Shown: positions 389-63,878 of the stretch, piece after piece
Position numbering within the stretch: position 1 is the stretch's first letter
Layout of the letters: each line of letters opens with the position of its first letter
Assembly (NCBI GenBank): GCA_965261115.1
Contig: OZ253447.1
Span: 3,402,011-3,466,010 of the forward strand
From: Candidatus Poribacteria bacterium
GTDB taxonomy: Bacteria; Poribacteria; WGA-4E; WGA-3G
Direction of reading: 5' to 3'
Length of the DNA stretch: 64,000 nucleotides
The notes under the pieces: generated by a model
Told to the model about the DNA's origin: nothing
What the model saw: the letters and a program-made list of their open reading frames with translations, nothing else
Databases searched by the model: none
Program-made: the position numbers and the translations under genes

Positions 389-612
389 CGATCTCTATCT
401 TCGATCTATAGGCAAGAGGATGCCCACACGAAGGATAGTGAACACCTTGTAGGTTTCACCTTCGGGTTAGATACCTTCCGGATAAGTTAAGTGTTCGGTT
501 TCCCTATAGACCTCTGTAGGAGAGACAGCAACATCCTCCATCAAGTTATGATAACCCAAGTTGCTACTAAGGGATTTTGAGCGTTTCAACACAGTTTTTT
601 AGACACTTTCCC

Positions 613-690
613 AACCCCCAGAGGGGTGATATATCTATAGAAACAGTGTATTTAAGCGACCGCACCCCAGAGGGGTGCTATGTCTATAAA
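613..690. repeat. two hairpin-repeat units (CACCCC-AGA-GGGGTG + TATRTCTATA tail), cluster 1 of a window-wide family
   Basis: Perfect palindrome CACCCCAGAGGGGTG at 663-677 followed by CTATGTCTATA. Imperfect copy at 614-640 followed by ATATATCTATA. The same architecture recurs at 58930-59000 and 63421-63590. Confidence 0.6.
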
Positions 691-833
691 TAGGTGGCAA
701 CTTGCGTTATTATAGTAGATCCCGTAATTATTTATACACTTGACATCGGTTCGGTTAGGAAACCGAACTACCGAGGGTTGAAAGTGTGTATTTATTTTTG
801 GGATTTACTATAAAGGTAGGTGACGTTTGAAAC

Positions 834-2878: not shown

Positions 2879-3367
2879 ATGCAATACTTTGCGTACGGGT
2901 CCAACATGAACGTCTCCCAGACGCAACAACGGTGCCCTGGAATCACTCGTATAGGGACATTTCGACTTGAAGGCTTTCGTCTTATCTTTAACTACCATGC
3001 CGATATTGTTCCCGCGGAGGCGTGTATCGTTCACGGTGGACTCTGGAATATCACAGGAGACCACGAAGTCGCTCTCGATATGTACGAAGGCTACCCTACA
3101 TACTACGGCAAATATTACGAAGACGATGTCATGTTCTATCGCATGAGAGATGCGTCTGAGGATTTACTGCCACCGTCAAAATGGTATCTACAAACCGTCA
3201 TCCAAGGATACAAGGATTTTGGGTTAACACAAGAAAACTTTGAAGAGAGCCTCGGTGTCCAGCAACTTGGGTTAACGCAAACCGACCTTGAAGCGCGGCT
3301 CGGCGTGTCAATGGATGAGCTTGAACAATTATTCTCTCGCGTGGCAACCTCTCCTGTCTATCGGTGA
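2879..3367 (+). CDS. gamma-glutamyl cyclotransferase / AIG2-like family protein
   Basis: N-terminal YFAYGSNM motif typical of GGCT/AIG2-like proteins. AGGAGGG RBS before the ATG at 2879. Confidence 0.7.
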   Translation: MQYFAYGSNMNVSQTQQRCPGITRIGTFRLEGFRLIFNYHADIVPAEACIVHGGLWNITGDHEVALDMYEGYPTYYGKYYEDDVMFYRMRDASEDLLPPSKWYLQTVIQGYKDFGLTQENFEESLGVQQLGLTQTDLEARLGVSMDELEQLFSRVATSPVYR

Positions 3368-7004: not shown

Positions 7005-7969
7005 TCAACTCCCATGTGATGCCAAAAGGGTTTTGAATTCATCAAGGCTATTTACCTGCATCGCGGCACGGCGTAAATCTTTGAGGTGCTGTAATTCTTC
7101 AATGGATTCAAGCATCGGTTTTAACGTTTGCCCACCAATCTCGTCGAATTGAATCTCTAATGCCTCAAGAATACCTTCAATGGTACTTTCTCGTGCACCT
7201 TGTTCAATGCCTTGTTCAATGCCTTGTTCAATGCCTTGTTCAATGCCTTGTTCAATGCCTTGCTGTAGGATATATCGGTAAGTCGATGATTCTAACATGG
7301 GGCCCTCCAACAGATGGCGAATTTCGGCAGGATCAACGATCAAACCGCTCAAAATCCATTGCCATATTAGTAAATTATTCTGCAGATCCGGTGTAAGCGG
7401 ACGAGCAAGCGTCATCCGATTACACTGCTCAACCCACTCAACTCTGGATACACCTTCCGGGGGTTGCATCAGCGGCGTAAACGCCATCAGACTGGTCTGA
7501 TCAGTATCAAAAATAGTTTGTCCATCAAACTCACTCAGCCGGATCACCTGATACTCTATTAGCACATTGTGTCCGGGAAAATCTTGGTTATACTCGCCCG
7601 GGTCATTCCCACCGGCATCTGAACGGAGATAGATAGTAAAAGACAGAATCGGCAAGCCATATCTTTCAAAGCACCTTCCGAAATAGCCGACTTTGCGCTT
7701 TAGTATCTCTGGTGTACTCTCACGACTCACTTGGAACTCAATATCACCAAGACTTCTCTACCGTCCACCTCTGCTTTTGACAAAGTATCCATGCGCCGTA
7801 TCTCAACGGTCGGCAGTTCTGTCTCAAGTTGTTCTATGAACTTCAGTCCGGGGATATTGGTCAGTTTCCGCAATAAATCTTCGGTGAAGGTCCCGAAGAT
7901 GTCCTTACTCACAATATCGAATCGGTTGTGCGGTAAGTTTTCAAAGAATTCGTGCAAACTCTTCTGCAT
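7005..7969 (-). pseudogene. Rpn-family recombination-promoting nuclease/putative transposase (PD-(D/E)XK N-domain + DUF4351 C-domain), frameshifted near 7728-7732
   Basis: ORF 7727-7969 encodes the N-terminal Rpn region (..FDIVSKD..GREVLVIL). It continues into ORF 7005-7730 (EFQVSRES..) after a 1-nt shift. The C-terminus has DUF4351-like ..EGILEALEIQFDEIG..LQHLKDL.. Confidence 0.6.
7196..7262. repeat. perfect 12-bp tandem repeat (TTGTTCAATGCC) x5.5 encoding (GIEQ)n inside the Rpn-like gene
   Basis: Direct reading of the sequence. It translates to QQGIEQGIEQGIEQGIEQGIEQG on the minus strand. Confidence 0.9.
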
Positions 7970-26937: not shown

Positions 26938-27141
26938 TATGCCGTCCGAGAAGCTGCGTGAAGTGCTGCAAGTTAATGATGCGTTATCAAAACTCCGAGA
27001 CTAAAACTCCCGTGCTTTAGCAGGGAGATACAGTCTCGCCCTCGTTAATTAGACCACGGGTCTACATTGAAAATAAATTTGATCTTCTAACCTTTTTGTG
27101 GTATAATACCTGTATAATCTAACATAAAAAAGGTTTTTAGA

Positions 27142-27555
27142 ATGAGATTAGAAACACCAGATTTAGTATATCAAACAACCAGATATTCTACATACGCCTG
27201 TGAGTATCATATCATTTGGTGTACGAAATATAGACGATCTGCTCTGTCTGATGAAATTCAAGCACGTTTCAAAGAACTTGTATTAGAATCAGAAGAGAAA
27301 TACGGATTCATTGTTCGTGCTATAGAGACAATGGCTGACCACGTGCATTTGTTGATGAGTATTCCACCAACCGAAAATGTAAGTATCATGGTTGGCAAAA
27401 TAAAAAGCATGACAGCCAAAGTATTGCGTGAAGAGTTTCCTCACCTAAAGTCAAGGTTGCCTAACCTGTGGACGCGTTCCTATTTTGTAGCCTCTACCGG
27501 GGGCGTGACATTAGAAGCTTTAAAGCAATATGTAGCATCTCAAAAAGGTGTCTAA
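27142..27555 (+). CDS. tnpA: IS200-type HuH Y1 transposase TnpA
   Basis: 137 aa. HVHLL HuH motif and a C-terminal Y (YFVASTGG). Classic IS200 length. Confidence 0.9.
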   Translation: MRLETPDLVYQTTRYSTYACEYHIIWCTKYRRSALSDEIQARFKELVLESEEKYGFIVRAIETMADHVHLLMSIPPTENVSIMVGKIKSMTAKVLREEFPHLKSRLPNLWTRSYFVASTGGVTLEALKQYVASQKGV

Positions 27556-28320
27556 TGCCAAGTTTCTACCGAACAAAAACACTGAAAATAGAAGAACAAC
27601 CGATATTCTCTGAAGTGAACGCTGCGTCTGCTAACATTAACGGGACAAGAAGTCGTAGGCGTTGATATAGGCGAAATACACCCGATTGTCTCTCACGACG
27701 GGCAAGACACACATATCTACAATGGACGGTATATTAGATCACTATACCGCTATAGAAATAAAGTGCTTGCCGAGTTTAGTCAGACGATCCGTCGGTGTAA
27801 ACGCCATTCAAAACGCTGGTGGAGATTGACGCGTCGGAAGTGGAAACGCATACGAAAGATTGATAACCAAATCAAAGACGCACTCCATAAACAGACGACA
27901 AAGTTTGTGAAATACTGCGAAGTGAAAGGTATTGGTACGATAATACTCGGCGACCTCACAGGTATCCGAAACACTATCAACTATGGCAAACGTGCGAATC
28001 AGAAACTCCACCAGTGGGCTTTCAGTAAGATAGGGGAGTTGATAACCTACAAAGCAAAATGTTTAGGTATCAAAGTCAAAACGATTGACGAATCCTATAC
28101 TTCGCAAACTTGTCCAAAATGCGGTAACCGAAAGAAACCAACACATAGAAACTATACCTGCACATGCGGATTTGAATATCACCGCGACGGTGTAGGTGCG
28201 CTGAATATCAGACGAAAGTATCTGGGCCACTTCGGTGTCCCCGTAGTGGCGGAAATGGGATTTTCCCGCATGACACCGCCCTTGGGCTTTCGCTTGGAAG
28301 TCCCTGTTGCCTCGTCTTAA
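27555..28320 (+). pseudogene. tnpB: TnpB (IS605 OrfB) remnant: internally deleted and frameshifted
   Basis: A TnpB-like N-terminus (YRTKTLKIEEQ) runs straight into the RuvC-I region (GVDIGEIHPIV) in another frame. The C-terminal zinc finger CPKCG..CTCG and RuvC-III (HRDGVGALNI) are retained. Total coding is about 250 aa, against about 400 aa expected. Confidence 0.65.
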
Positions 28321-39790: not shown

Positions 39791-40594
39791 TTAATCATAA
39801 TTGCTTGGTCGATGATCGCCGAGGAGTCGTCTCTGCCGAGGGCTCGCTTGGGCGAGAATGGATGCATCAAACTGAAACTTATTCAGATAGGGCGGATATT
39901 TCTGTGTAATCATCCGCATGGCATAGTGGACTTGCATGAGATAGCGGACTTCATTACTCGTATTGGCAGAGCCGCGATGCCAGACTTCGCTGCGGAAAAG
40001 CACGACATCCCCGGCATTACATAAGATACTCTCTTCTCCGCGGTTATTCCACTCGGTTGCACCGTTTGGGGAACACCCAGAGAAATGGCTGCCCGGAACA
40101 AACTTCGTCGGTCCCAATTCTTCATACATATCGTTGAGATAGTAATGGGCAGTGGTGATGAAGATTGGGATTTTGACGCGCGGATCAGAACGAACGTCTG
40201 CCGGTAGAGAGATTGGCAGCCAATCGGTATGTAATCCCTGATCTGGACGGTCGGGTCCTGTCAGCCACGAATGCATACCGATGCAGTGGCAATCCTCGCC
40301 GTGCGCCGCCTCGGCAACTTCAATAACAGGCGATCTGTCAAGGTATTGGAGATACAACGGATCCCGATTAAACGAGTTGCTGATGAGCTTGTGAAGGAAT
40401 GCGTTGCCATTTTGCGGGGTTTCATCCCGGTCATGAGATTCTGGGATCGCCTCTAATCGATCCATAGTCGCTCGTAATTCAGCGATTTCATCGGCGTCAA
40501 GCACGCTGGGGAAATAGACATAACCATCCCTTTCGAGTGCTTCAACTTGACTTTCTAAGTCGTCGTATGCAACGAGTGAAAGAGCTTTCGCCAC
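39791..40594 (-). CDS. PhyH-family Fe(II)/2OG dioxygenase (tandem paralog 1)
   Basis: GLHTDWLP HxD motif. GTG start at 40594 with an AAGGAG RBS. Highly similar to the adjacent gene. Confidence 0.8.
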   Translation of the reverse strand: MAKALSLVAYDDLESQVEALERDGYVYFPSVLDADEIAELRATMDRLEAIPESHDRDETPQNGNAFLHKLISNSFNRDPLYLQYLDRSPVIEVAEAAHGEDCHCIGMHSWLTGPDRPDQGLHTDWLPISLPADVRSDPRVKIPIFITTAHYYLNDMYEELGPTKFVPGSHFSGCSPNGATEWNNRGEESILCNAGDVVLFRSEVWHRGSANTSNEVRYLMQVHYAMRMITQKYPPYLNKFQFDASILAQASPRQRRLLGDHRPSNYD

Positions 40595-40662
40595 TTTTGG
40601 TACTCCTTTCAGATAGCTGACAACCAAGCCCACAAGGACACACCTCAAATTATGTGTCACCT

Positions 40663-41466
40663 TTAATCATAATTGCTTGGCCGATGATCGCCGAGGAGCC
40701 GTCGCTGTTGAGGATTCGCTTGGGCAAGGATCGATGCGTCAAACTGAAACTTATTCAGGTAAGGCGGGTATTTCTGTGTAATCATCCGTTGTGCATAATG
40801 GACTTGCAAGAGGTAACGGGTTTCGTCAGCCGTATTGGCGGAACCCCGGTGCCAGACTTCACTGCGGAAAAGCACCACGTCCCCAGCATTGCATAAGATA
40901 CTTTCTTCCGTTCTGCCTTTCCACTCGGTTTGCCCGTTCGGAGAACACCCAGAGTAATGACTACCTGGGACAAACTTCGTCGGTCCCAGTGCTTCATACA
41001 TATCGTTGAGATAGTAGTGGGCAGTGGTGATGAAGATTGGGACTTTGACGCGTGGGGCAGAACGGATATCTGCTGGCAGCGCAATTGGTAGCCAATCGGT
41101 ATGTAACCCCTGATCCGGACGTCCCGGTCCTGTCAACCACGATTGCATCCCGATACAATGACAATCCTCGCCGTGCGTCGCTTCAGCAACTTCAATAATC
41201 GGTGATTTGTCAAGGAATTCGAGATAGAGTGGATCTCGATTAAACGAGTTGTTGATGATTTTATTGAGGAATCCGCCGCCATTTTGAGGCGTTTGGTGTC
41301 GATCCAAGCACTCTGGGATCGTTTCTAATCGATCCATAGTCGCTCGCAACTCAGCGACTTCCTCAGCATCAAGCACGTTGGGGAAATAGACATAACCATC
41401 TCTTTCCAGTGCTTCCACTTGGCTTTCTAAATCGTTGTATGCAATAAGTGAAAGGGCTTTCGCCAT
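40663..41466 (-). CDS. PhyH-family Fe(II)/2OG dioxygenase (tandem paralog 2)
   Basis: Same motifs. ATG at 41466 with an AAGGAG RBS. Near-identical length (267 aa) and sequence to paralog 1. Confidence 0.8.
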   Translation of the reverse strand: MAKALSLIAYNDLESQVEALERDGYVYFPNVLDAEEVAELRATMDRLETIPECLDRHQTPQNGGGFLNKIINNSFNRDPLYLEFLDKSPIIEVAEATHGEDCHCIGMQSWLTGPGRPDQGLHTDWLPIALPADIRSAPRVKVPIFITTAHYYLNDMYEALGPTKFVPGSHYSGCSPNGQTEWKGRTEESILCNAGDVVLFRSEVWHRGSANTADETRYLLQVHYAQRMITQKYPPYLNKFQFDASILAQANPQQRRLLGDHRPSNYD

Positions 41467-41625
41467 TTTTGGTACTCCTTTCGGACGATAGCAATAGGTC
41501 AACGCTTCTCGCTATGATATGTTAACCGCAACGAAGTTGTCAATGAAAAAATATGTCGGAGTTGGATTTCAAGCGTCCGGATTTCCTTTAAGCTCCACCA
41601 CAAAGCGATTGCCTCAATACCTCAG

Positions 41626-52400: not shown

Positions 52401-53403
52401 TTTCGTTGTGGTAGCCACAATCAGAGCAAGGCTTCGTTGTCGCTGTCCACTGTCCCGCTTTCAATAATGTTTTGCCATATTTGGCACAGGTCCATTGAAG
52501 TATTGATGAGAACTCACCGAAGGCAAGGTCAGATGTTTTGCGTCCCCAAAGCTTTTTCATGCCTTCAAGGTTGAGCGTCTCTATCGCGATTCTATCGTAT
52601 CTACGGACAAGACGAAGTGCGAGTTTGAAAAACCAGTCCCGTCTTTTTTCTCTGATTTTTTTATGCAGACGGGCAAGGTGTCGTTTCGCACGATACCACG
52701 CATTTGAACCTTTTTGCTTTCGGGAGAGTGCTTTATTTGCTGAACGGATAGCATTTAGCATGCGTTTATAGAACTCTGGCGACTCTATTTTAATGCCGTC
52801 TGAAAGTGTGAGAAATGTTTTCATACCGAAATCTGCCCCTGCCTCATGACTGGTCAGTGGGAGTTTTTCGGAAGTCTCACAATCTTCACACGATAGATAT
52901 AAATAGTAATCTCCTACATTATCACGTTTGATCGTTATAGTTTTGATAGTGCCAGTCCACTTACGGTGTTTCCAAAATGTAAAGGATTTGTCTAAACAGT
53001 TGATTTTTATACGATTGCCTTCAATCTCATATCCTGCTTGTGTGAACGTCAATGAGTTATATTTGTGGCTCGGTTTGATTTTAGGCTTGCCTACTTTGCG
53101 AGGGGACAATCCTTTCTTTTTCGCTTTAAGATAATCAAAAAACTTTTCATAACCGAGGTGAATACGTTTGGCAACTTGTTGTATCACTTGACTCGGCAGT
53201 TGATTCCAATGCGGTTTTGTTGTTCGCTTCAACTTCGTTATATGACGGCAGATACGACCAAAACCGGCATACTTGCCATACATACGATAATAACGCCTCT
53301 GCAATAAAATCAAGTGAACATGCACGTCATGCAAATCGTCAAGCAGATTGCCAATCTGTATCATATTAGACTGATGATAAAACTCATATTCATAGGTTGT
53401 CAT
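52291..53403 (-). CDS. tnpB: full-length TnpB (IS605 OrfB / IS1341-type RNA-guided nuclease), no adjacent TnpA
   Basis: 370 aa. RuvC-I ADFGMKTF, RuvC-II IETLNLEGM, zinc finger CSDCG..CPECG, RuvC-III HHDRDINAAKNI. Confidence 0.9.
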   Translation of the reverse strand: MTTYEYEFYHQSNMIQIGNLLDDLHDVHVHLILLQRRYYRMYGKYAGFGRICRHITKLKRTTKPHWNQLPSQVIQQVAKRIHLGYEKFFDYLKAKKKGLSPRKVGKPKIKPSHKYNSLTFTQAGYEIEGNRIKINCLDKSFTFWKHRKWTGTIKTITIKRDNVGDYYLYLSCEDCETSEKLPLTSHEAGADFGMKTFLTLSDGIKIESPEFYKRMLNAIRSANKALSRKQKGSNAWYRAKRHLARLHKKIREKRRDWFFKLALRLVRRYDRIAIETLNLEGMKKLWGRKTSDLAFGEFSSILQWTCAKYGKTLLKAGQWTATTKPCSDCGYHNENLTLSDRQWTCPECGSHHDRDINAAKNILRAGIPVT

Positions 53404-53500
53404 GGTATATCAAGTATCAAGTCCTTAACCCCTTCACAGTGGGTAGGCAGACACGTAACCTTGCGATTACGCTGTGAATGTCTGCCAACTTGATACTATA
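53404..53500. repeat. IS605-type left-end subterminal hairpins upstream of tnpB
   Basis: Nested inverted repeats TCAAGTATCAAGT..ACTTGATACT and GGCAGACA-N25-TGTCTGCC immediately upstream of the tnpB start. Confidence 0.45.
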
Positions 53501-53922
53501 ATTAGACTACACTTCGTAGGTGAATATCAAATTTATTTTTTAACATTTACACAATTAGCGGGAAACCTATATCACAAAGCTAAAGCATTGGGCTTTACGC
53601 CCGAATGCCCGTAAAAACCACTGAAGAAAAACACATATTCTGATTAGGGTCAAACAAATTCTTAAGCACGATTTACCTAATGTCTTTCATTTTTTAAGTT
53701 CTTCCGATGTCCCAGTCCGTTTTATCCCCTGCAAAGCTGAGAGGGTAGCAGACGCACCGTGCGGTATGCTTCGCAGTGCCACCCGAACTGGTTTAAACGG
53801 TATAACACAAAAGCAAAAGATTGCCAATTTAGGTTATGCATGGTTCATATAAAAATAGTATTTACAATCAGGAATATCGTCAAATGGGAGATGGACACAA
53901 CTAACCCTTGGTGAGCTTGTGG

Positions 53923-58438: not shown

Positions 58439-58835
58439 CTTTTCTTCCTCCTCTCTGTCTCCGCTTTTCAGGATATTATATCACATTTCCGATTTTCTTC
58501 TAAAGCGGAATTCTATAGGGCTATTTAGTTTTCGGTTTTTCGTCCAATTTTGGCCCCCCAGGACCGGTAGGTGCGTGTTTCTAACCGCACCGGATCTGTA
58601 ACAGAAAACATAAAACCCGAGAATTTCTTAAAACTAAATCACCCTGTGGAATTCTACGAAAAGTGTTGCTTTAAAACCGAACGCCACATATAATGCATTA
58701 TCTGTATTCAGAAGGACTTACGCATTTTTCTATGATAACTATGTATTACGCACTGCAGGGTTTTTGCTTGGGTATTTCTTCGAGGGTTTTAAACCCCGCC
58801 TGCAAGGGGGCTGCGTAAGTCCTATTCAGACTCAA

Positions 58836-59063
58836 GTTTGGACAATTCTTATACCGTGAGCATTGAGTTTCCAAAGGAGTGCCTATTTTTCGCTAAGTTT
58901 CTCATGTTCACGGAACTCGTCCAAAAATCCCTCACTCCGTAAGAGTATAATGTCTATAAAAAACGGGCCCCGCGGCACCCCTCACTCCGTAGGAGTGCTA
59001 TGTGTTTTTCGTTGGGAGCGGGTTTCAAATTTCTCCACTGAAAATTGTCCAAAGTTTAGTATA
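58836..59063. repeat. MITE-like segment bracketed by IS4-type IR-like sequences, containing hairpin-repeat cluster 2
   Basis: AAGTTTGGACAATTC (58836-58850) and AATTGTCCAAAGTTTAG (59043-59059) resemble the termini of the adjacent IS. Interior 58930-58997 carries CACTCC-GTA-RGAGTG hairpins. Confidence 0.4.
58930..58997. repeat. hairpin-repeat cluster 2 (CACTCCGTAAGAGT.. and CACTCCGTAGGAGTG + CTATGTGT tail)
   Basis: Perfect palindrome at 58983-58997. Degenerate copy at 58932-58950 followed by ATAATGTCTATAAA. Confidence 0.55.
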
Positions 59064-59067
59064 TAAA

Positions 59068-60468
59068 CTAAAGTTTGGACGATATTGTAAAGTTTATGCT
59101 GCCTTGTCGAAAGGCAGGGGCGTATCGGGTTGAAAATCGGTGCTAATATTCTGCGAGTTTGTTTTTCGCTTGAACTTGGCAGAAAATGATGCCACCGCCA
59201 TTTGCGAGCGGAGATAAGCCACCCGTAAGCCTTGTGTAAGTTTTTCAGGACGATACCAATGAATGTTGAGATGTTCACAGACCTTCTCAACACTTATCTC
59301 TTTGCACATAACAGTGCGCGTCGTGAATACCAACTTCGTCAGACTTGCTGCAACGAAACTCAGTTGGACGAACCGGTTGATGCTTTTCCGAGATTTCAAG
59401 CGATAGGCATCGAAACCGAAGTGCTGTTTGACGTCCCGAAAAGCTGTTTCTATTTGCCACCTTTGTCGATAATACGCAACGATCTTCGGTATCTCAAGCG
59501 TCAAGTCTGTTGTAAAGACGCAGAAATACCGATACGGTTTTGAGGCTTTCGGACGGTTGCGGATGACGACGATCCGAACCTGTGCGTCACACATTTTCGT
59601 CCGCACAACTTTTGAGGCGATTGAATAACTTTTTGCGTCTATGTCTATCGTCTCATACCGCAACCTGCGAATATCAAGCCGGTCTCCGTATTTCCGGGGT
59701 CTCCCGCGTTGCCGGCGTTTCGGTTGCTTCGGTAAACGATAGAAGACGGCATTAGATTTGGCGCGACATAAAATATGATGTCCAAAACTCAGTGCCATTG
59801 TAAAGACTTTTCGCCGTGCGAAGCCACGATCAAAGATGATAAGTCCCGGGAGGATCTTTGAACAGATGCGCTTTAGAACCGCTTGACTCTTATCGCGAAT
59901 CGTCTGTGGAACAATGAGTTTCACCCATACTGGGAAAAACTGCCACTCCGTGGGTGTCGGACACAGCAAACCGAGTGCGCCAAACTCGTGTCCGAAGTGA
60001 AACTTTGATTGATTCACGCGATGCTTTTGATAACCGCAGTTGCGAAAAAAATGTAAACCCCATTGGGTTTTGCCAGTCTTCAAGGCTTTGGTTTCGTCAT
60101 AGACATAAACCCAATCCTCAAAGACATCTTGGAGGCGTTTGATGAGCCGTGCAGCAACGGCATCCGCATTCCATCGCCCCCGGGAAAGGAACTTCGGAAA
60201 TGACCAATACTTCGTTTCTGAAGCACTACATTGATAAAGATCCGTCAGCGTTCCACTGCCTCTATTGGCGATGAATCCGAAGATAAACGCTTCAAAGAGT
60301 GCGAAGTTTTGTTGATTGAATAAAAGTCGAAAATCCGATAGAATATCTCCTAAGCAGAAAAGGAGGTTCATTTTTACGTTCCTTTCAAAACAGTGGTATG
60401 TTTTTATGAAAGGATACCTACTTTTCTGCTTTTTCGCATTATAATTCTAAAAATTGTCCAAACTATAG
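59068..60468 (-). mobile_element. IS4-family insertion sequence (approximate ends)
   Basis: Terminal inverted repeats ACTAAAGTTTGGACGATATT (59073-59092) and AATTGTCCAAACTATAGT (60451-60468) flank a DDE transposase gene. Confidence 0.7.
59094..60371 (-). CDS. IS4-family DDE transposase
   Basis: 425 aa. YRQRWQIETAFRDVKQHFG C-terminal signature of IS4/IS701-group transposases. Confidence 0.85.
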   Translation of the reverse strand: MNLLFCLGDILSDFRLLFNQQNFALFEAFIFGFIANRGSGTLTDLYQCSASETKYWSFPKFLSRGRWNADAVAARLIKRLQDVFEDWVYVYDETKALKTGKTQWGLHFFRNCGYQKHRVNQSKFHFGHEFGALGLLCPTPTEWQFFPVWVKLIVPQTIRDKSQAVLKRICSKILPGLIIFDRGFARRKVFTMALSFGHHILCRAKSNAVFYRLPKQPKRRQRGRPRKYGDRLDIRRLRYETIDIDAKSYSIASKVVRTKMCDAQVRIVVIRNRPKASKPYRYFCVFTTDLTLEIPKIVAYYRQRWQIETAFRDVKQHFGFDAYRLKSRKSINRFVQLSFVAASLTKLVFTTRTVMCKEISVEKVCEHLNIHWYRPEKLTQGLRVAYLRSQMAVASFSAKFKRKTNSQNISTDFQPDTPLPFDKAA

Positions 60469-60493
60469 TATTCAGAAGGAGAAGGAGAAAAAT

Positions 60494-61531
60494 ATGTACA
60501 AAAGTGCGATTTTAGGGTGTCGGGGACGTGCGCGCGGGCACGCCCGTGCCTACGAACACGTCAAAGGCGGGAAACTGTCCGCTATCTGTGATATGAAGGA
60601 AGATCTGCTTAACGATTTCGGGGACGAATTCGGGATTGATGCCCGCTACACTGATCTTGATGAGATGCTCTCCAAAGAGAAACCGGATCTGCTACACATC
60701 GTTACCGCACCTGTGCTACGCGGCAGCAATGAACGTATCCGCTACCCGCTGATGAACCAAGCCTCTGAACACGGTGTGCCTGCAGCAATCGTCGAAAAAC
60801 CGATCGCCGTTGAAAGCGAAGACTGGCGGCAAATCTCCGAGCTTGCAGAACGCACTAAAACCAAATTCGTCGTCAACACACAACTCAATTTCCATCCGGA
60901 GAACCTCACACTCAAGCAGGATGTCGCTGAAGGCAAAATCGGTGCGATCAAATTTATTGAGGCAAGCGCGCGTAACCCACCCGTAGACCAAGCACCGCAC
61001 GTCCTACAACTCGTGTCCTCTTATATCGATAACTCGCGACCCGCAAAGGTACATGGACAAATATCAGGCGCAGGGCAGCTGGATTCTGCACAACCTTCAC
61101 CCGCAAACGCCACAGCACTTGTGACTTACGCAAACGGCGTGCAAGCCTCGGTCGCATTCGGTCCCGAAATGGCGCCACGTGTACTCCCGGATACCGGAAA
61201 CAACCGACACAAACGCGTCTGCGTGTTCGGTGAAACAGGATTCGTCCACTGGCGATTTGAAAGTTGGGAACGGAATCTACCCGGCAGCGGTTATGAAGGT
61301 GGGGACATGAGCTACGGCGGACAAGATGTCATCGCCCAAGGCGGACTCACCGATGCTGTGTTTGAATGGCTTGATGATGAAAGCAAAGTCCATCCGACGC
61401 ATCTCAAGCAATCTCTCGCCGAATTCAACCTGCTTTTGGGAATTTATTATAGCGGTCTGACAAACACCGTCGTCGAATTACCGTTTGATCCACCTGATGG
61501 CATGATGGATATGTTCAGAGAACGGCTTTAA
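60494..61531 (+). CDS. Gfo/Idh/MocA-family oxidoreductase
   Basis: N-terminal Rossmann ILGCRGRARGHARAY. EKP motif (VEKPIAV). Confidence 0.85.
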   Translation: MYKSAILGCRGRARGHARAYEHVKGGKLSAICDMKEDLLNDFGDEFGIDARYTDLDEMLSKEKPDLLHIVTAPVLRGSNERIRYPLMNQASEHGVPAAIVEKPIAVESEDWRQISELAERTKTKFVVNTQLNFHPENLTLKQDVAEGKIGAIKFIEASARNPPVDQAPHVLQLVSSYIDNSRPAKVHGQISGAGQLDSAQPSPANATALVTYANGVQASVAFGPEMAPRVLPDTGNNRHKRVCVFGETGFVHWRFESWERNLPGSGYEGGDMSYGGQDVIAQGGLTDAVFEWLDDESKVHPTHLKQSLAEFNLLLGIYYSGLTNTVVELPFDPPDGMMDMFRERL

Positions 61532-63117: not shown

Positions 63118-63285
63118 CAAGTGTTTTTGCTTAGGGGTCAGAGCCATTCAATTCTCTGAAAAAACCATTAGATCCTGAATCAGTTTCGGATAGCGAATAT
63201 CTTAAAATCCGCGTCCTCCGCGTCCTCCGCGTCCTCCGTGATTCAGACAATTTAACAATTGAATGGTTCTGCTTAGGGGGTTCTT
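63118..63285. repeat. inverted repeat (TGCTTAGGGGTCAGAGCCATTCAATTC / GAATTGAATGGTTCTGCTTAGGGGG) enclosing a (CCGCGTCCT)x3 tandem
   Basis: Direct reading of the sequence. Intergenic position. Confidence 0.4.
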
Positions 63286-63358
63286 ATCGCTCGCGATCTT
63301 TTGAAAAAACGTTAACACCTATAAACGAAAACCAAAGTCAAAACCGAAAACTAAATCG

Positions 63359-63631
63359 GGGTGTGTAAAGTTTTTGACAGCATATTGATTTTTTCAAAGC
63401 GGACAGGTTTGCGGACATAGCACTCCGCTGGAGTGCGAGAGAAGCGAGCTATCGGTTTCTATAGATATATTGCTCCGCTGGAGCAAAGAGAGTTCTCGGA
63501 GGCCGGTTTCTCCTCACGCCAGAGGCGTGATATATCTATAGGGGTAGAAGTCAGCGATAAATGCACTCCAGCGGAGTGCTATGTCTTGGATCACTCCGAT
63601 ATGGTAACGTTGCCAGAATATTTACACACCC
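63359..63631. mobile_element. 273-bp MITE-like element with 11-bp TIRs (GGGGTGTGTAAA / TTTACACACCC) and 9-bp flanking direct repeat ACTAAATCG, carrying hairpin-repeat cluster 3
   Basis: TIRs at 63359-63370 and 63621-63631. Identical 9-mers at 63350-63358 and 63632-63640. Interior holds four covarying palindromes (63421-63435, 63471-63484 inverted, 63515-63529, 63563-63579). Confidence 0.6.
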
Positions 63632-63878
63632 ACTAAATCGTCCTGGTATAATTTGCTTTTCCCCTGAAAGTATACTATAATTTATAGTTACTATAGGTTT
63701 TTTTATTTTTTATTTGAAAAAAAATAAGATTTGACCTATTATAACTGGATAAGTGTGTCAATTGCTACGCGATGCGCAGTGCGAAGCGGATATCAAACAT
63801 TTGTCCTACAGGTTAACGGTTGACTACGGTTTATTCTCAAACTCACGTTTCTAATCACACTAAACTTGGAGAAGAGTG

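What the first reader, a model, noticed from the sequence alone, without database searches (positions are those of the whole stretch)
613..690. Family of covarying hairpin repeats with conserved TATGTCTATA tail (REP-like), three clusters in the window
Eight or more units share the architecture [6-7 bp perfect palindrome with 3-nt loop] + [T/C]TAT(G/A)TCTATA. The stems differ between copies but stay palindromic: CACCCC/GGGGTG, CACTCC/GGAGTG, CACGCC/GGCGTG, GCACTCC/GGAGTGC, GCTCC/GGAGC. Compensatory change of that kind means the hairpin is the selected feature, whether as an RNA/ssDNA structure or a dimeric protein site. The units sit only in intergenic DNA, at 613-690 (near tRNA-Leu), 58930-58997 (beside the IS4) and 63421-63590 (inside a MITE). 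An IS200-type Y1 transposase is present in the window. REP elements are mobilised by the related RAYT enzymes, so these could be a REP-like family or an undescribed small structured element.
Basis: seen in the sequence. Interest (0 to 1): 0.6.

Follow-up and report, generated by a model that had tools for sequence, protein, structure and literature searches.

The report
REP-like double-hairpin repeats of Poribacteria
The hairpin repeats are real and belong to a family found across sponge-symbiont Poribacteria genomes: pairs of short hairpins that also flank a low-copy tyrosine (Y1) transposase gene, as REP elements flank their transposases, although the copies in this window sit inside ordinary miniature transposons.

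Summary
Observation confirmed. The window holds eight hairpin+tail units (7 matches to a composite pattern against 0.04 expected). They form four A-B dimers spaced 49-50 nt, all intergenic. One pattern scan of reference genomes returned at least 120 stretches, 109 of them titled Poribacteria MAGs. In 984 kb of loci plus the window I counted 339 units; 1.2% lie in ORFs against 77% of bases. Five of seven stem pairs show compensatory change.

The same dimers flank a 155-161 aa Y1 gene in inverted orientation, often with tandem [A B]n arrays, in 8 of 8 loci of the main lineage. A second lineage has its own stem variant. The gene is seen at one place per genome and is syntenic across samples. Its motifs (DHIH, WQ, YIENQxxHH, C-terminal tail) match TnpAY1 subclass 1.2, which Quentin et al. 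2018 listed as having no REP partner. Homologues from other environments also carry hairpins with an ATGTNTATAG tail beside the gene (154 units within 600 nt, 31 farther).

The window has no such gene. Its IS605-type tnpA is unrelated to the units. Its four dimers sit inside three TIR/TSD MITE families (5-7, about 7 and 9 bp duplications), so DDE transposition probably placed them. Verdict: a REP-like system with a new Y1 partner, inferred from context only.

The parts
612..643 (+). Unit A of dimer E1: degenerate hairpin (CAACCCCC-AGA-GGGGTGA) followed by tail TATATCTATAGAAA
   Evidence: aligns with the A hairpin of the F1 MITE family
662..688 (+). Unit B of dimer E1: GCACCCC-AGA-GGGGTGC followed by TATGTCTATA
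553..708 (+). F1 MITE carrying dimer E1. TIRs are AACCCAAGTTGCTAC... and ...GGCAACTTGCGTT. The flanking 5-bp repeat is imperfect here (ATGAT 548-552, ATTAT 709-713).
   Evidence: IR (I2); at least 40 copies at 80-91% identity in other Poribacteria loci; TSD statistics; folds as a TIR stem plus two hairpins, z = -2.9
58933..58958 (+). First unit of dimer E2: degenerate hairpin CACTCC-GTA-AGAGTA followed by TAATGTCTATA
58983..59004 (+). Second unit of dimer E2: CACTCC-GTA-GGAGTG, then C and a short tail TATGTG
58830..59063 (+). F3 MITE carrying dimer E2. Its TIRs ACTCAAGTTTGGACAATT / AATTGTCCAAAGTTTAGT are the same as those of the adjacent IS4-like element.
   Evidence: copies with about 7-bp TSD in L063 and L085
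59064..60469 (-). IS4-like insertion sequence (DDE_Tnp_1 ORF 59094-60371) whose ends match the F3 TIRs. MITE plus IS together are flanked by ATTCAG (58824-58829 and 60470-60475).
63359..63631 (+). F2 composite MITE. It has 21-nt TIRs (GGGTGTGTAAAGTTTTTGACA / TGCCAGAATATTTACACACCC) and a 9-bp target duplication ACTAAATCG at 63350-63358 and 63632-63640. It holds dimers E4 and E3 head to head.
   Evidence: 9-bp TSDs also in L019, L020, L009, L099
63413..63436 (-). Unit B of dimer E4 (minus strand): GCACTCC-AGC-GGAGTGC followed by TATGTCC
   Evidence: (I2: 23 nt, 100% complementary to 63563-63585)
63456..63486 (-). Unit A2 of dimer E4 (minus strand): TTGCTCC-AGC-GGAGCAA followed by TATATCTATAGAAA
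63514..63541 (+). Unit A of dimer E3: TCACGCC-AGA-GGCGTGA followed by TATATCTATAG
63563..63589 (+). Unit B of dimer E3: GCACTCC-AGC-GGAGTGC followed by TATGTCTTGG

Best explanation
The units are members of a Poribacteria-wide family of REP-like repeats. The basic element is a direct dimer about 75-80 nt long. Hairpin A is a 6-7 bp GC-rich stem with a 3-nt loop followed by ATATGTCTATAGAAA. Hairpin B lies 49-50 nt downstream and is followed by CTATGT(CTATA).

The cognate protein is a low-copy Y1 (HUH) transposase of TnpAY1 subclass 1.2. In Poribacteria genomes its gene is bracketed by these dimers in inverted orientation ([A B]n, gene, [B' A']). By analogy with IS608/ISDra2 TnpA and E. coli TnpA-REP, I infer that the enzyme binds the hairpins on single-stranded DNA and cuts or joins in the conserved tail. 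That would generate and maintain arrays and dispersed copies.

Dimers have also been captured inside at least three conventional TIR MITE families. The four dimers in this window are of that kind (F1, F3, F2). They were most likely placed by DDE-transposase-mediated MITE insertion, as shown by their TIRs and target-site duplications.

Shown: the family, the dimer anatomy, covariation, intergenic location, Y1 flanking, the protein's motif class, and the MITE TIR/TSD. Inferred: that the Y1 enzyme acts on the hairpins, and where it cuts.
For: Family and anatomy. A scan of reference genomes found at least 120 stretches; 109 of the 120 loci are titled Poribacteria MAGs and the other 11 'uncultured bacterium' MAGs. 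I counted 339 units in 984 kb of loci plus the window. 117 successive pairs are spaced 49-50 nt. Covariation affects 5 of 7 stem pairs.

Y1 association in Poribacteria. The Y1 gene is flanked by inverted dimers and tandem arrays in L046, L010, L013 and L081. The same holds in loci fetched by protein identity rather than by the DNA pattern: L201 and L202-204. In L201 the stop codon lies inside the tail of the downstream unit. A second Y1 lineage (71% identity, P0040) is flanked by its own stem variant, CGCTCC.

Low copy and synteny. Only 4 of 120 unit-bearing loci carry the gene. P0014 is on record at one place in a 5.24 Mb chromosome. P0040 has the same neighbours in all eight places shown, and 24 contigs carry it. 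P0006 has the same neighbours in 3 samples, with different array sizes (20, 20 and 15 units).

Protein class. Alignment A2 shows the DHIH, WQ and YIENQxxHH motifs plus a conserved C-terminal tail. These match subclass 1.2 in Table 1 of PMC6006769.

Other environments. Of 80 metagenome loci with 50-69% identical homologues, 44 carry a GC hairpin followed by an ATGTNTATAG tail. 154 such units lie within 600 nt of the gene and 31 lie farther, about an 18-fold density difference.

MITE context of the window copies. F2 has a 9-bp TSD in at least 5 copies. In F1, 14 of 24 copies have a perfect 5-bp TSD and 5 more have 6-7 bp repeats, against 2.5% in mismatched controls. F3 shares its TIRs with the IS4-like element in the window.
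Against: There is no biochemical or expression evidence; the link between enzyme and repeat rests on genomic context only.

The window has no subclass 1.2 gene, and I could not fetch the rest of its genome.

The units lack the GT[AG]G tag of canonical REPs. The Y1 scores below the NCBIfam RAYT cut-off (31.8 against 80) and shows no detectable sequence match to the E. coli RAYT structure.

The window copies, and 77 of 145 dimers (79 if F2+F3 double hits are counted), sit in TIR/TSD MITEs. This shows spread that does not depend on Y1.

Only 23 of 65 metagenome homologue loci show significant inverted similarity between their flanks (29 of 65 show direct similarity), and 36 of 80 show no unit.

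The hairpin variant at the Y1 gene matches the dispersed copies in two genomes (OY764073, OZ240248) but not in OX638316.

Both public scans were capped, so no true per-genome counts exist.
Confidence: 0.7

Rival explanations
1. The hairpin dimers are only internal modules of DDE-mobilised MITEs and have no link to the Y1 enzyme. They might be kept because they help the MITE or the host, for example as RNA stabilisers or terminator-like structures. On this view the Y1 gene lies in repeat-rich intergenic DNA by coincidence.
For: All four window dimers, and 77 of 145 dimers in the sample (79 with F2+F3 double hits), lie in F1, F2 or F3 elements with TIRs and TSDs. A few units meet a lax terminator pattern.
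Against: Inverted flanking of the Y1 gene is seen in 8 of 8 loci of the main lineage, including loci not selected by the pattern. A second Y1 lineage has its own stem variant. Homologues from other environments carry the same hairpin+ATGTNTATAG units concentrated within 600 nt of the gene, with no Poribacteria MITEs present. Units show no preference for convergent or 3' intergenic regions (12, 20 and 76 regions convergent, divergent and tandem, against a background of 55, 65 and 278). They show no orientation bias relative to genes (78 same, 90 opposite). Terminator-like hits do not exceed shuffles (9 against 6.2).
Confidence: 0.15
2. The palindromes are double-stranded binding sites for a dimeric host protein (a regulator, or a nucleoid or gyrase-type protein, as reported for E. 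coli REP/BIME). Covariation would then reflect symmetric half-sites.
For: Perfect palindromes with a fixed 3-nt spacer, a fixed 49-50 nt phasing of about five helical turns, and intergenic location.
Against: A symmetric protein site would keep its sequence, yet stems vary freely at 5 of 7 positions while pairing is preserved. The strongly conserved part is the asymmetric tail. Nothing in this reading explains the inverted arrangement around the Y1 gene. It could be a secondary role, as for E. coli REPs, so it is not exclusive of the best explanation.
Confidence: 0.08
3. The units are miniature derivatives (PATE-type) of the IS605-type element present in the window and are moved by its TnpA.
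For: A Y1 tnpA (PF01797, 130 bits) with a tnpB fragment lies at 27142-28320. Each dimer has two hairpins in direct orientation, like the left and right ends of IS200/IS605 elements.
Against: The end hairpin of that IS (26996-27038, CGAGACTAAAACTCCC.../...GGGAGATACAGTCTCG) is unrelated to the units. No unit lies near it. Its TnpA is only 23% identical over 88 aa to the Y1 that is actually flanked by units.
Confidence: 0.03
4. The regularly spaced repeats are a degenerate or miniature CRISPR-like array.
For: Short palindromic repeats at regular spacing of about 50 nt, with arrays of 7-20 units in some loci.
Against: The 'spacers' are themselves repeated (a tandem unit of 101-125 nt). Two repeat types alternate. 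The repeats are dispersed at hundreds of sites and in both orientations. No cas genes are seen next to them.
Confidence: 0.01

Closest known systems
REP / RAYT (TnpA-REP) systems: REPtrons, BIMEs and REPINs of Proteobacteria (Nunvar 2010 PMC2817692; Bertels & Rainey 2011 PMC3116915; Bertels 2017 PMC5581495)
   Same: Short GC-rich extragenic palindromes in high copy. A low-copy, syntenic Y1/HUH gene bracketed by them in inverted orientation. Lineage-specific hairpin variants. Composite inverted arrangements (F2, F4) that recall REPINs and BIMEs.
   Different: There is no 5' GT[AG]G tag; the conserved tag is (C/A)TATGTCTATAG on the 3' side. The basic unit is a direct dimer of two short hairpins rather than a single REP or an inverted doublet. 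The enzyme is class 1 (IS200-like, YIENQxxHH), not class 2 (YIxxNP). No bias towards convergent or 3' intergenic regions was seen.
TnpAY1 subclass 1.2 (Quentin, Siguier, Chandler, Fichant 2018, PMC6006769)
   Same: The Poribacteria Y1 has every listed signature: DH[IV]H, WQ, Y---Q--HH, about 150 aa, a conserved C-terminal domain of about 30 aa, and low copy number.
   Different: The paper lists this subclass as 'REP: no', without typical end hairpins, and mostly in Cyanobacteria and Bacteroidetes. Here it sits in a REPtron-like arrangement in Poribacteria and in many metagenome contigs.
TIRtrons / TIRYTs with double-palindromic TIRs (Di Nocera et al. 2013, PMC3733652)
   Same: Tyrosine-transposase genes flanked by long inverted repeats that are not GTAG REPs. 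Some of these repeats contain two palindromes, and some are amplified into moderately abundant dimeric or clustered families.
   Different: I could not compare sequences, because the figures are not held. Poribacteria are not among the species named in the passages I read. The conserved ATGTNTATAG tag and the MITE hitch-hiking do not appear in those passages.
IS200/IS605 elements (IS608, ISDra2) and their miniature PATE derivatives
   Same: These are the closest solved relatives of the Y1 (ISDra2 TnpA 2xm3 at E = 4e-14, IS608 at 1e-9). They use small subterminal hairpins, and two similar hairpins lie in direct orientation on one strand.
   Different: At the gene the flanks are inverted, not direct. 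The gene is single-copy and syntenic, not multi-copy. There is no tnpB.
TIR MITEs with structured or modular interiors (Correia/NEMIS, ERIC, RUP, BOX, Nezha)
   Same: F1 (about 156 bp), F2 (about 273 bp) and F3 (about 234 bp) have TIRs, target-site duplications and many copies with different flanks. F3 shares its TIRs with an IS4-like element.
   Different: Three unrelated TIR families carry the same internal double-hairpin module, and that module also exists outside MITEs at the Y1 locus.

Membership tests
REP/RAYT (REPtron) | Short extragenic palindromes in high copy number | tested here: met
   At least 120 stretches in a capped scan. 339 units in 984 kb, with 1.2% in ORFs against 77% of bases.
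REP/RAYT (REPtron) | Conserved 5' GT[AG]G tetranucleotide at the foot of the hairpin | tested here: not met
   The conserved tag is (C/A)TATGTCTATAG 3' of the stem. On the other strand this reads CTATAGACATA(G/T) 5' of the stem. No GTAG or GTGG is present.
REP/RAYT (REPtron) | Y1 gene flanked by the repeats in inverted orientation | tested here: met
   L046, L010, L013, L081, L201 and L202-204, plus L210-217 with a variant stem.
REP/RAYT (REPtron) | Y1 gene at one or few copies per genome and vertically stable | tested here: inconclusive
   P0014 is on record at one place in a 5.24 Mb chromosome. P0040 has the same neighbours in all eight places shown (24 contigs carry it), and P0006 in 3 samples. 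The look-up is by identical protein, so divergent paralogues in the same genome would be missed. Flanking genes differ between species.
REP/RAYT (REPtron) | Enzyme belongs to the RAYT clades (NCBIfam NF047646; Y motif YIxxNP) | tested here: not met
   31.8 bits against a cut-off of 80, while IS200 NF033573 gives 74 bits against a cut-off of 55. The Y motif is YIENQxxHH. No PDB hit to E. coli TnpA-REP at E up to 10.
REPIN | The replicating unit is two REPs in inverted orientation forming one long hairpin | tested here: inconclusive
   The basic unit is a direct dimer. Inverted pairs of dimers do exist, head to head in F2 and tail to tail in F4. Which form replicates is not known.
TnpAY1 subclass 1.2 (partner protein) | DH[IV]H, WQ and Y---Q--HH motifs, about 148 aa, C-terminal domain of about 30 aa, low copy | tested here: met
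   Alignment A2 compared with Table 1 and section 18 of PMC6006769.
IS200/IS605 and PATE | tnpA lies between left- and right-end hairpins in direct orientation; multi-copy; often with tnpB | tested here: not met
   The flanks are inverted. The gene is low copy. No tnpB is adjacent.
IS200/IS605 and PATE | Insertion 3' of a fixed tetra- or pentanucleotide target without target duplication | not testable with these tools
   This needs filled and empty site pairs for dimers outside MITEs. The MITE-borne copies do have TSDs.
TIR MITE (DDE-mobilised): the vehicles F1, F2, F3 | Terminal inverted repeats plus target-site duplication, with many copies in different flanks | tested here: met
   F1: 14 of 24 copies have a perfect 5-bp TSD and 5 more have 6-7 bp, against a 2.5% control. 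F2: 9-bp TSD in the window, L019, L020, L009 and L099. F3: about 7-bp TSD in L063 and L085.
TIR MITE (DDE-mobilised): the vehicles F1, F2, F3 | A cognate autonomous IS with the same TIRs | tested here: inconclusive
   F3 matches the IS4-like element at 59064-60469. No IS-sized pair of F1 or F2 TIRs enclosing a recognised transposase was seen in the sampled loci.
CRISPR array | Identical repeats separated by unique spacers, with a leader and cas genes | tested here: not met
   The spacers are repeated, two repeat types alternate, and the repeats are dispersed in both orientations.
Rfam RNA families | Match to a curated covariance model | tested here: not met
   No hit at gathering score in the whole window. 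No hit at E up to 1 around the three clusters.

The most novel reading that the evidence does not exclude
TnpAY1 subclass 1.2 is a widespread Y1 clade with no known DNA partner or function. On this reading it is the enzyme of a distinct REPtron class. Its substrate would be a direct pair of short hairpins tagged by ATGTNTATAG, conserved across phyla while the stems co-diversify with the enzyme. In Poribacteria the substrate has been amplified genome-wide, partly by riding inside DDE-type MITEs.
Probability: 0.55. Interest if true: 0.6.

Novelty: new variant of a known kind. Interest (0 to 1): 0.5.

Why it matters
REP/RAYT systems are the best-studied case of a domesticated transposase that coexists for long periods with its own population of repeats. 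So far they rest on class 2 enzymes and GTAG-tagged REPs.

If the association seen here is functional, it gives TnpAY1 subclass 1.2 a substrate that can be tested directly. This clade had at least 5,246 protein clusters in my search. In the 2018 survey it was found in about 4% of species and listed as having no REP. The proposed substrate is a hairpin followed by ATGTNTATAG. The system would then extend to a sponge-symbiont phylum that has no cultured members.

The family also shows one structured module shared between Y1-type and DDE-type mobile elements, which bears on how intergenic repeats spread. In practice, these repeats and their variable arrays are likely to break or confuse Poribacteria MAG assemblies, and they could serve as strain markers.

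Tried and rejected
Source contig. An exact-protein look-up of window ORF 60494-61531 was not on record, so the rest of the source genome could not be read.

Rfam. There were no hits at gathering score or at E up to 1.

Link to the window's IS605. Rejected: the hairpin is different and the protein is 23% identical.

Similarity to E. coli RAYT. No PDB match was found with the single sequence or with a 21-sequence profile.

Autonomous IS for the F1 and F2 TIRs. The scan gave two IS-sized F1 pairs that I did not inspect (one spans several window ORFs) and no F2 pair.

Terminator reading. Terminator-like hits do not exceed shuffles, and units show no orientation or 3'-end bias.

CRISPR reading. Rejected because the spacers are repeated.

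Synteny of the Y1 gene across species. Only L010 and L046 share a neighbouring gene. Within a species, synteny is conserved.

Genome-specific matching of hairpin variants between the Y1 flanks and dispersed copies. This is suggestive in 2 of 3 genomes only and is not used as a main argument.

Literature. Searches found no paper on Poribacteria hairpin repeats. The 'RayT' hit I read was the author name Raytselis in a reference list. No later work on subclass 1.2 turned up.
Full report
OBSERVATION

The three clusters are as described. A composite pattern covering the inner stem, the loop and the start of the tail (CCNNNGGNGYRNTATRT) matches 7 times in the window against 0.04 expected. The tail alone, with up to 1 mismatch, gives 20 against 3.98. 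The matches at 59640 and 60098 lie inside the IS4-like ORF and have no hairpin, so they are chance hits.

There are eight units. Six have perfect stems of 6-7 bp with 3-nt loops. Two are degenerate (612-643 and 58933-58958). The repeat finder shows that the units are paired, with start-to-start spacings of 49, 50 and 49 nt. The real element is therefore a direct dimer. Hairpin A is followed by ATATATCTATAGAAA. After about 20 nt of spacer comes hairpin B, followed by CTATGT(CTATA). The window has four such dimers: 612-688 (+), 58933-59004 (+), 63514-63589 (+) and 63413-63486 (-). All are intergenic. tRNA-Leu (1784-1869) is not adjacent.

THE FAMILY ELSEWHERE

109 of the 120 loci are titled Candidatus or uncultured Poribacteria MAGs, and the other 11 are titled 'uncultured bacterium' MAGs. 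Together they come from about 49 assemblies.

In these loci plus the window (984 kb) a relaxed finder gives 339 units. 117 successive same-strand pairs are 49-50 nt apart. Only 4 units (1.2%) lie in ORFs of at least 150 aa, although such ORFs cover 77% of bases. The intergenic regions that hold units have the same mix of tandem, divergent and convergent neighbours as the background (76, 20 and 12 against 278, 65 and 55). Units show no orientation bias relative to co-directional genes (78 against 90). ORFs in these two analyses were called crudely.

COVARIATION

I anchored on the exact tail TATRTCTATAG, for which about one chance hit is expected in the sample. This gives 175 instances and 91 distinct 30-mers. 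Nine have a disrupted or missing hairpin, which leaves 82.

With the structure ..(((((((...)))))))..., 93% of cells pair. 5 of 7 pairs change on both sides. 76 cells are compensatory against 21.9 in shuffles (0 of 500 shuffles reach this). Slid registers give only 38-55% pairing. Stem variants include GCACTCC, TTGCTCC, TCACGCC, (G/T)CACCCC, CGCTCC, CATCCC and AGTCCC. Loops include AGC, AGA, GTA and GGA.

Caveat: 129 of the 175 instances came from the palindromic search pattern, which fixes five stem positions. Variation at those positions comes only from the 46 non-seed units.

THE PARTNER GENE

In L046, L010, L013 and L081 a 155-159 aa ORF lies between dimers in inverted orientation. Read along the gene the order is [A B], gene, [B' A']. 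Tandem [A B]n arrays with a period of 101-125 nt often lie on one side.

The protein matches Pfam Y1_Tnp (97 bits) and NCBIfam IS200 (74 bits, cut-off 55). It falls below the RAYT model (31.8 bits, cut-off 80). Its closest solved relatives are ISDra2 and IS608 TnpA. E. coli TnpA-REP is not detected even with a profile.

Only 4 of the 120 unit-bearing loci carry the gene. To remove the ascertainment bias of the DNA pattern, I fetched loci by exact protein identity.
- P0014 is on record at a single place in the 5.24 Mb chromosome OY764073. It has nine units upstream (+) and an inverted B' A2' pair directly downstream. The stop codon lies inside the tail of that downstream unit.
- P0006 has the same neighbours in three samples, but arrays of 20, 20 and 15 units. 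Its downstream inverted unit is interrupted by a small insertion.
- P0040 is a lineage at 71% identity. It has identical synteny in all eight places shown (24 contigs carry it). It is flanked by its own stem variant: TCGCTCC/CCGCTCC upstream and the mirror image downstream.
- P0049 sits between an amino-acid kinase/PUA gene and an aldehyde dehydrogenase gene (the domain pair expected of proB and proA) and keeps only remnants of units.

CLASSIFICATION OF THE PROTEIN

A 21-sequence alignment shows invariant DHIH (HuH), WQ, and Y-I-x-N-Q-x-x-H-H, followed by a conserved tail of about 35 aa. These are the signatures of TnpAY1 subclass 1.2 in Quentin et al. 2018: DH[IV]H, WQ, YIKNQKEHH, median 148 aa, a 30-aa C-terminal domain and 1.7 copies per genome.

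That paper records 'REP: no' for this subclass. [quoted passage not shown] I found no later paper on it in the library. Sources name these proteins generically as 'IS200/IS605 family transposase', or 'RayT' through the COG label.

BEYOND PORIBACTERIA

A metagenome scan with the protein kept 80 loci at 50-69% identity, from many different metagenome samples. Reading the flanks shows the same plan in many of them. Upstream lies a hairpin followed by xATGT(T/G)TATAG(A)AA, about 25 nt of spacer, then a second hairpin next to the start codon. The mirror image lies downstream. Stems are lineage-specific, for example GCCCC, GCTCC, CGACCCC, GAATCC, TGACCTC and AATCCC.

In numbers, 44 of 80 loci carry at least one GC hairpin followed by an ATGTNTATAG unit. 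154 units lie within 600 nt of the gene (86 kb of sequence) and 31 lie in the remaining 306 kb or so. Flank-to-flank similarity exceeds all 30 shuffles in 23 of 65 loci in the inverted sense and in 29 of 65 in the direct sense. The association is therefore frequent but not universal.

The tail is the clade-wide constant and the stem is the variable. This parallels GT[AG]G plus a variable hairpin in class 2 REP systems.

WHAT CARRIES THE WINDOW'S COPIES

BLAST of the window against the loci shows that the units are embedded in longer repeats.

F1 (window 553-708, about 156 bp). It has TIRs AACCCAAGTTGCTAC.../...GGCAACTTGGGTT and the A-B dimer inside. At least 40 copies at 80-91% identity occur in many species. 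14 of 24 copies with both ends have a perfect 5-bp direct repeat of the form A-NNN-T. Five more have 6-7 bp repeats. The control with mismatched copies gives 2.5%. The window copy is imperfect (ATGAT and ATTAT). As single-stranded DNA the element folds into a TIR stem closing the two hairpins (z = -2.9).

F2 (63359-63631). It has 21-nt TIRs and a 9-bp duplication ACTAAATCG on both sides. It holds B' A2' | A B head to head. 9-bp duplications are also seen in L019, L020, L009 and L099.

F3 (58830-59063). Its TIRs are those of the adjacent IS4-like element (59064-60469; DDE_Tnp_1). The pair is flanked by ATTCAG. Copies elsewhere have duplications of about 7 bp.

Target duplications are the mark of staggered-cut (DDE) insertion and are not made by IS200/IS605-type Y1 transposition; that rests on established knowledge of those families. 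The window's copies were therefore most likely placed as MITE cargo.

Of 145 dimers in the sample, 29 are next to the Y1 gene, 43 are in F1 context, 15 in F2, 19 in F3, and 3 have mixed labels. The remaining 36 are 'other'. Many of these 'other' dimers form a fourth arrangement, F4: two dimers tail to tail. This is what deleting the gene from [A B], gene, [B' A'] would leave, and it recalls a REPIN.

MECHANISM

Shown: the anatomy of the repeat, its abundance and structural conservation, its fixed relation to a low-copy Y1 gene, and its second life inside MITEs.

Inferred: the subclass 1.2 enzyme recognises the extruded hairpins on single-stranded DNA and cleaves or ligates in the conserved tail, like its closest solved relatives. 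The direct A-B pair may be held by a TnpA-type dimer. Arrays grow and shrink by this activity or by slippage and recombination between 101-125 nt units; array sizes differ between samples.

In two genomes the stem and loop variant at the gene equals that of the dispersed F1 copies even though the spacers differ. In OY764073 both carry CACCCC-GTA and CACTCC-GTA. In OZ240248 both carry CACCCC-GTA. In OX638316 they do not match. This is suggestive only.

RIVALS

The pure MITE-module reading cannot explain the gene-centred inverted arrangement in pattern-independent loci, nor the same arrangement in other environments. A dimeric double-strand binding site would conserve sequence rather than pairing. 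The window's IS605 has unrelated ends. CRISPR is excluded by the repeated 'spacers'. No Rfam family matches.

COMPARISON AND NOVELTY

The system works like a REPtron, but it fails two defining tests of REP/RAYT membership: the GT[AG]G tag and the RAYT clade. It resembles the 'TIRtrons with double palindromic TIRs' mentioned by Di Nocera et al. 2013. The partner is a subclass for which the only survey found no repeats.

I therefore rate it a new variant of a known kind and of moderate interest. The link between enzyme and repeat is contextual only, per-genome counts are missing because the scans were capped, and the window itself lacks the gene.

Noticed in passing
window 710-813: A second MITE-like element directly abuts F1. 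It is a 104-nt near-perfect hairpin with 32-nt arms (TTATAGTAGATCCCGTAATTATTTATACACTT / AAGTGTGTATTTATTTTTGGGATTTACTATAA). Copies occur in about four other Poribacteria loci.
   Followed up: partly
window 58713-58825: A palindromic element with a 12-nt perfect inverted repeat (AGGACTTACGCA ... TGCGTAAGTCCT), just upstream of the F3 MITE. L073 holds a 91% identical copy.
   Followed up: no
window 53400-53539: Another short palindromic repeat (ends TATCAAGT... / ...ACTTGATA) between two genes, present in five other Poribacteria loci.
   Followed up: no
window 63200-63256; L010 1620-1680; L046 1440-1500; L201 2300-2330; L202 3740-3790: Runs of a short motif of about 7-9 nt (AATCCGCG / TCCTCCGCG / AATCCTGTA) end in GATTCAGACAA (GCTGACAA in L202). 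They recur next to unit arrays and next to the F2 element. Nature unknown.
   Followed up: no
L076 7085-7200; L116 about 1040-1100; L093 about 3150-3220; L210-L212 upstream of the Y1 gene; L202 3560-3650: A small element with ends TCATGAAGATTAA... / ...TTAATCTTCATGA is found inserted between the two arms of units, at the loop position. This suggests a repeat that targets these hairpins, as some IS110/IS1111 elements target REPs.
   Followed up: partly
L087, L104, L106, L056, L060, L201 2400-2440, L013 7700-7740: A recurrent tail variant in which CTATGTCTATAGAAA is replaced by CTAT-TGCTTCGCAGTGAGAA-TAGAAA, a 16-nt insertion or replacement within the conserved tail.
   Followed up: no
window 58824-60475: The F3 MITE (58830-59063) and the IS4-like element (59064-60469) lie back to back and share TIRs. 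Together they are flanked by the direct repeat ATTCAG, as if they inserted as one unit or as if the IS landed at the MITE end.
   Followed up: partly
window 26996-28320: An IS605-type element: a left-end hairpin at 26996-27038, tnpA at 27142-27555 (Y1_Tnp, 130 bits), and a truncated tnpB at 27763-28320 (Cas12f1-like TNB and OrfB_IS605 domains). It is unrelated to the hairpin family.
   Followed up: yes
window 7186-7274 and 39791-40962: A 12-nt tandem repeat (CCTTGTTCAATG, about 6 copies) lies inside ORF 7005-7730. Two adjacent paralogous ORFs (39791-40660 and 40663-41502) share 82% identity over 300 nt.
   Followed up: no
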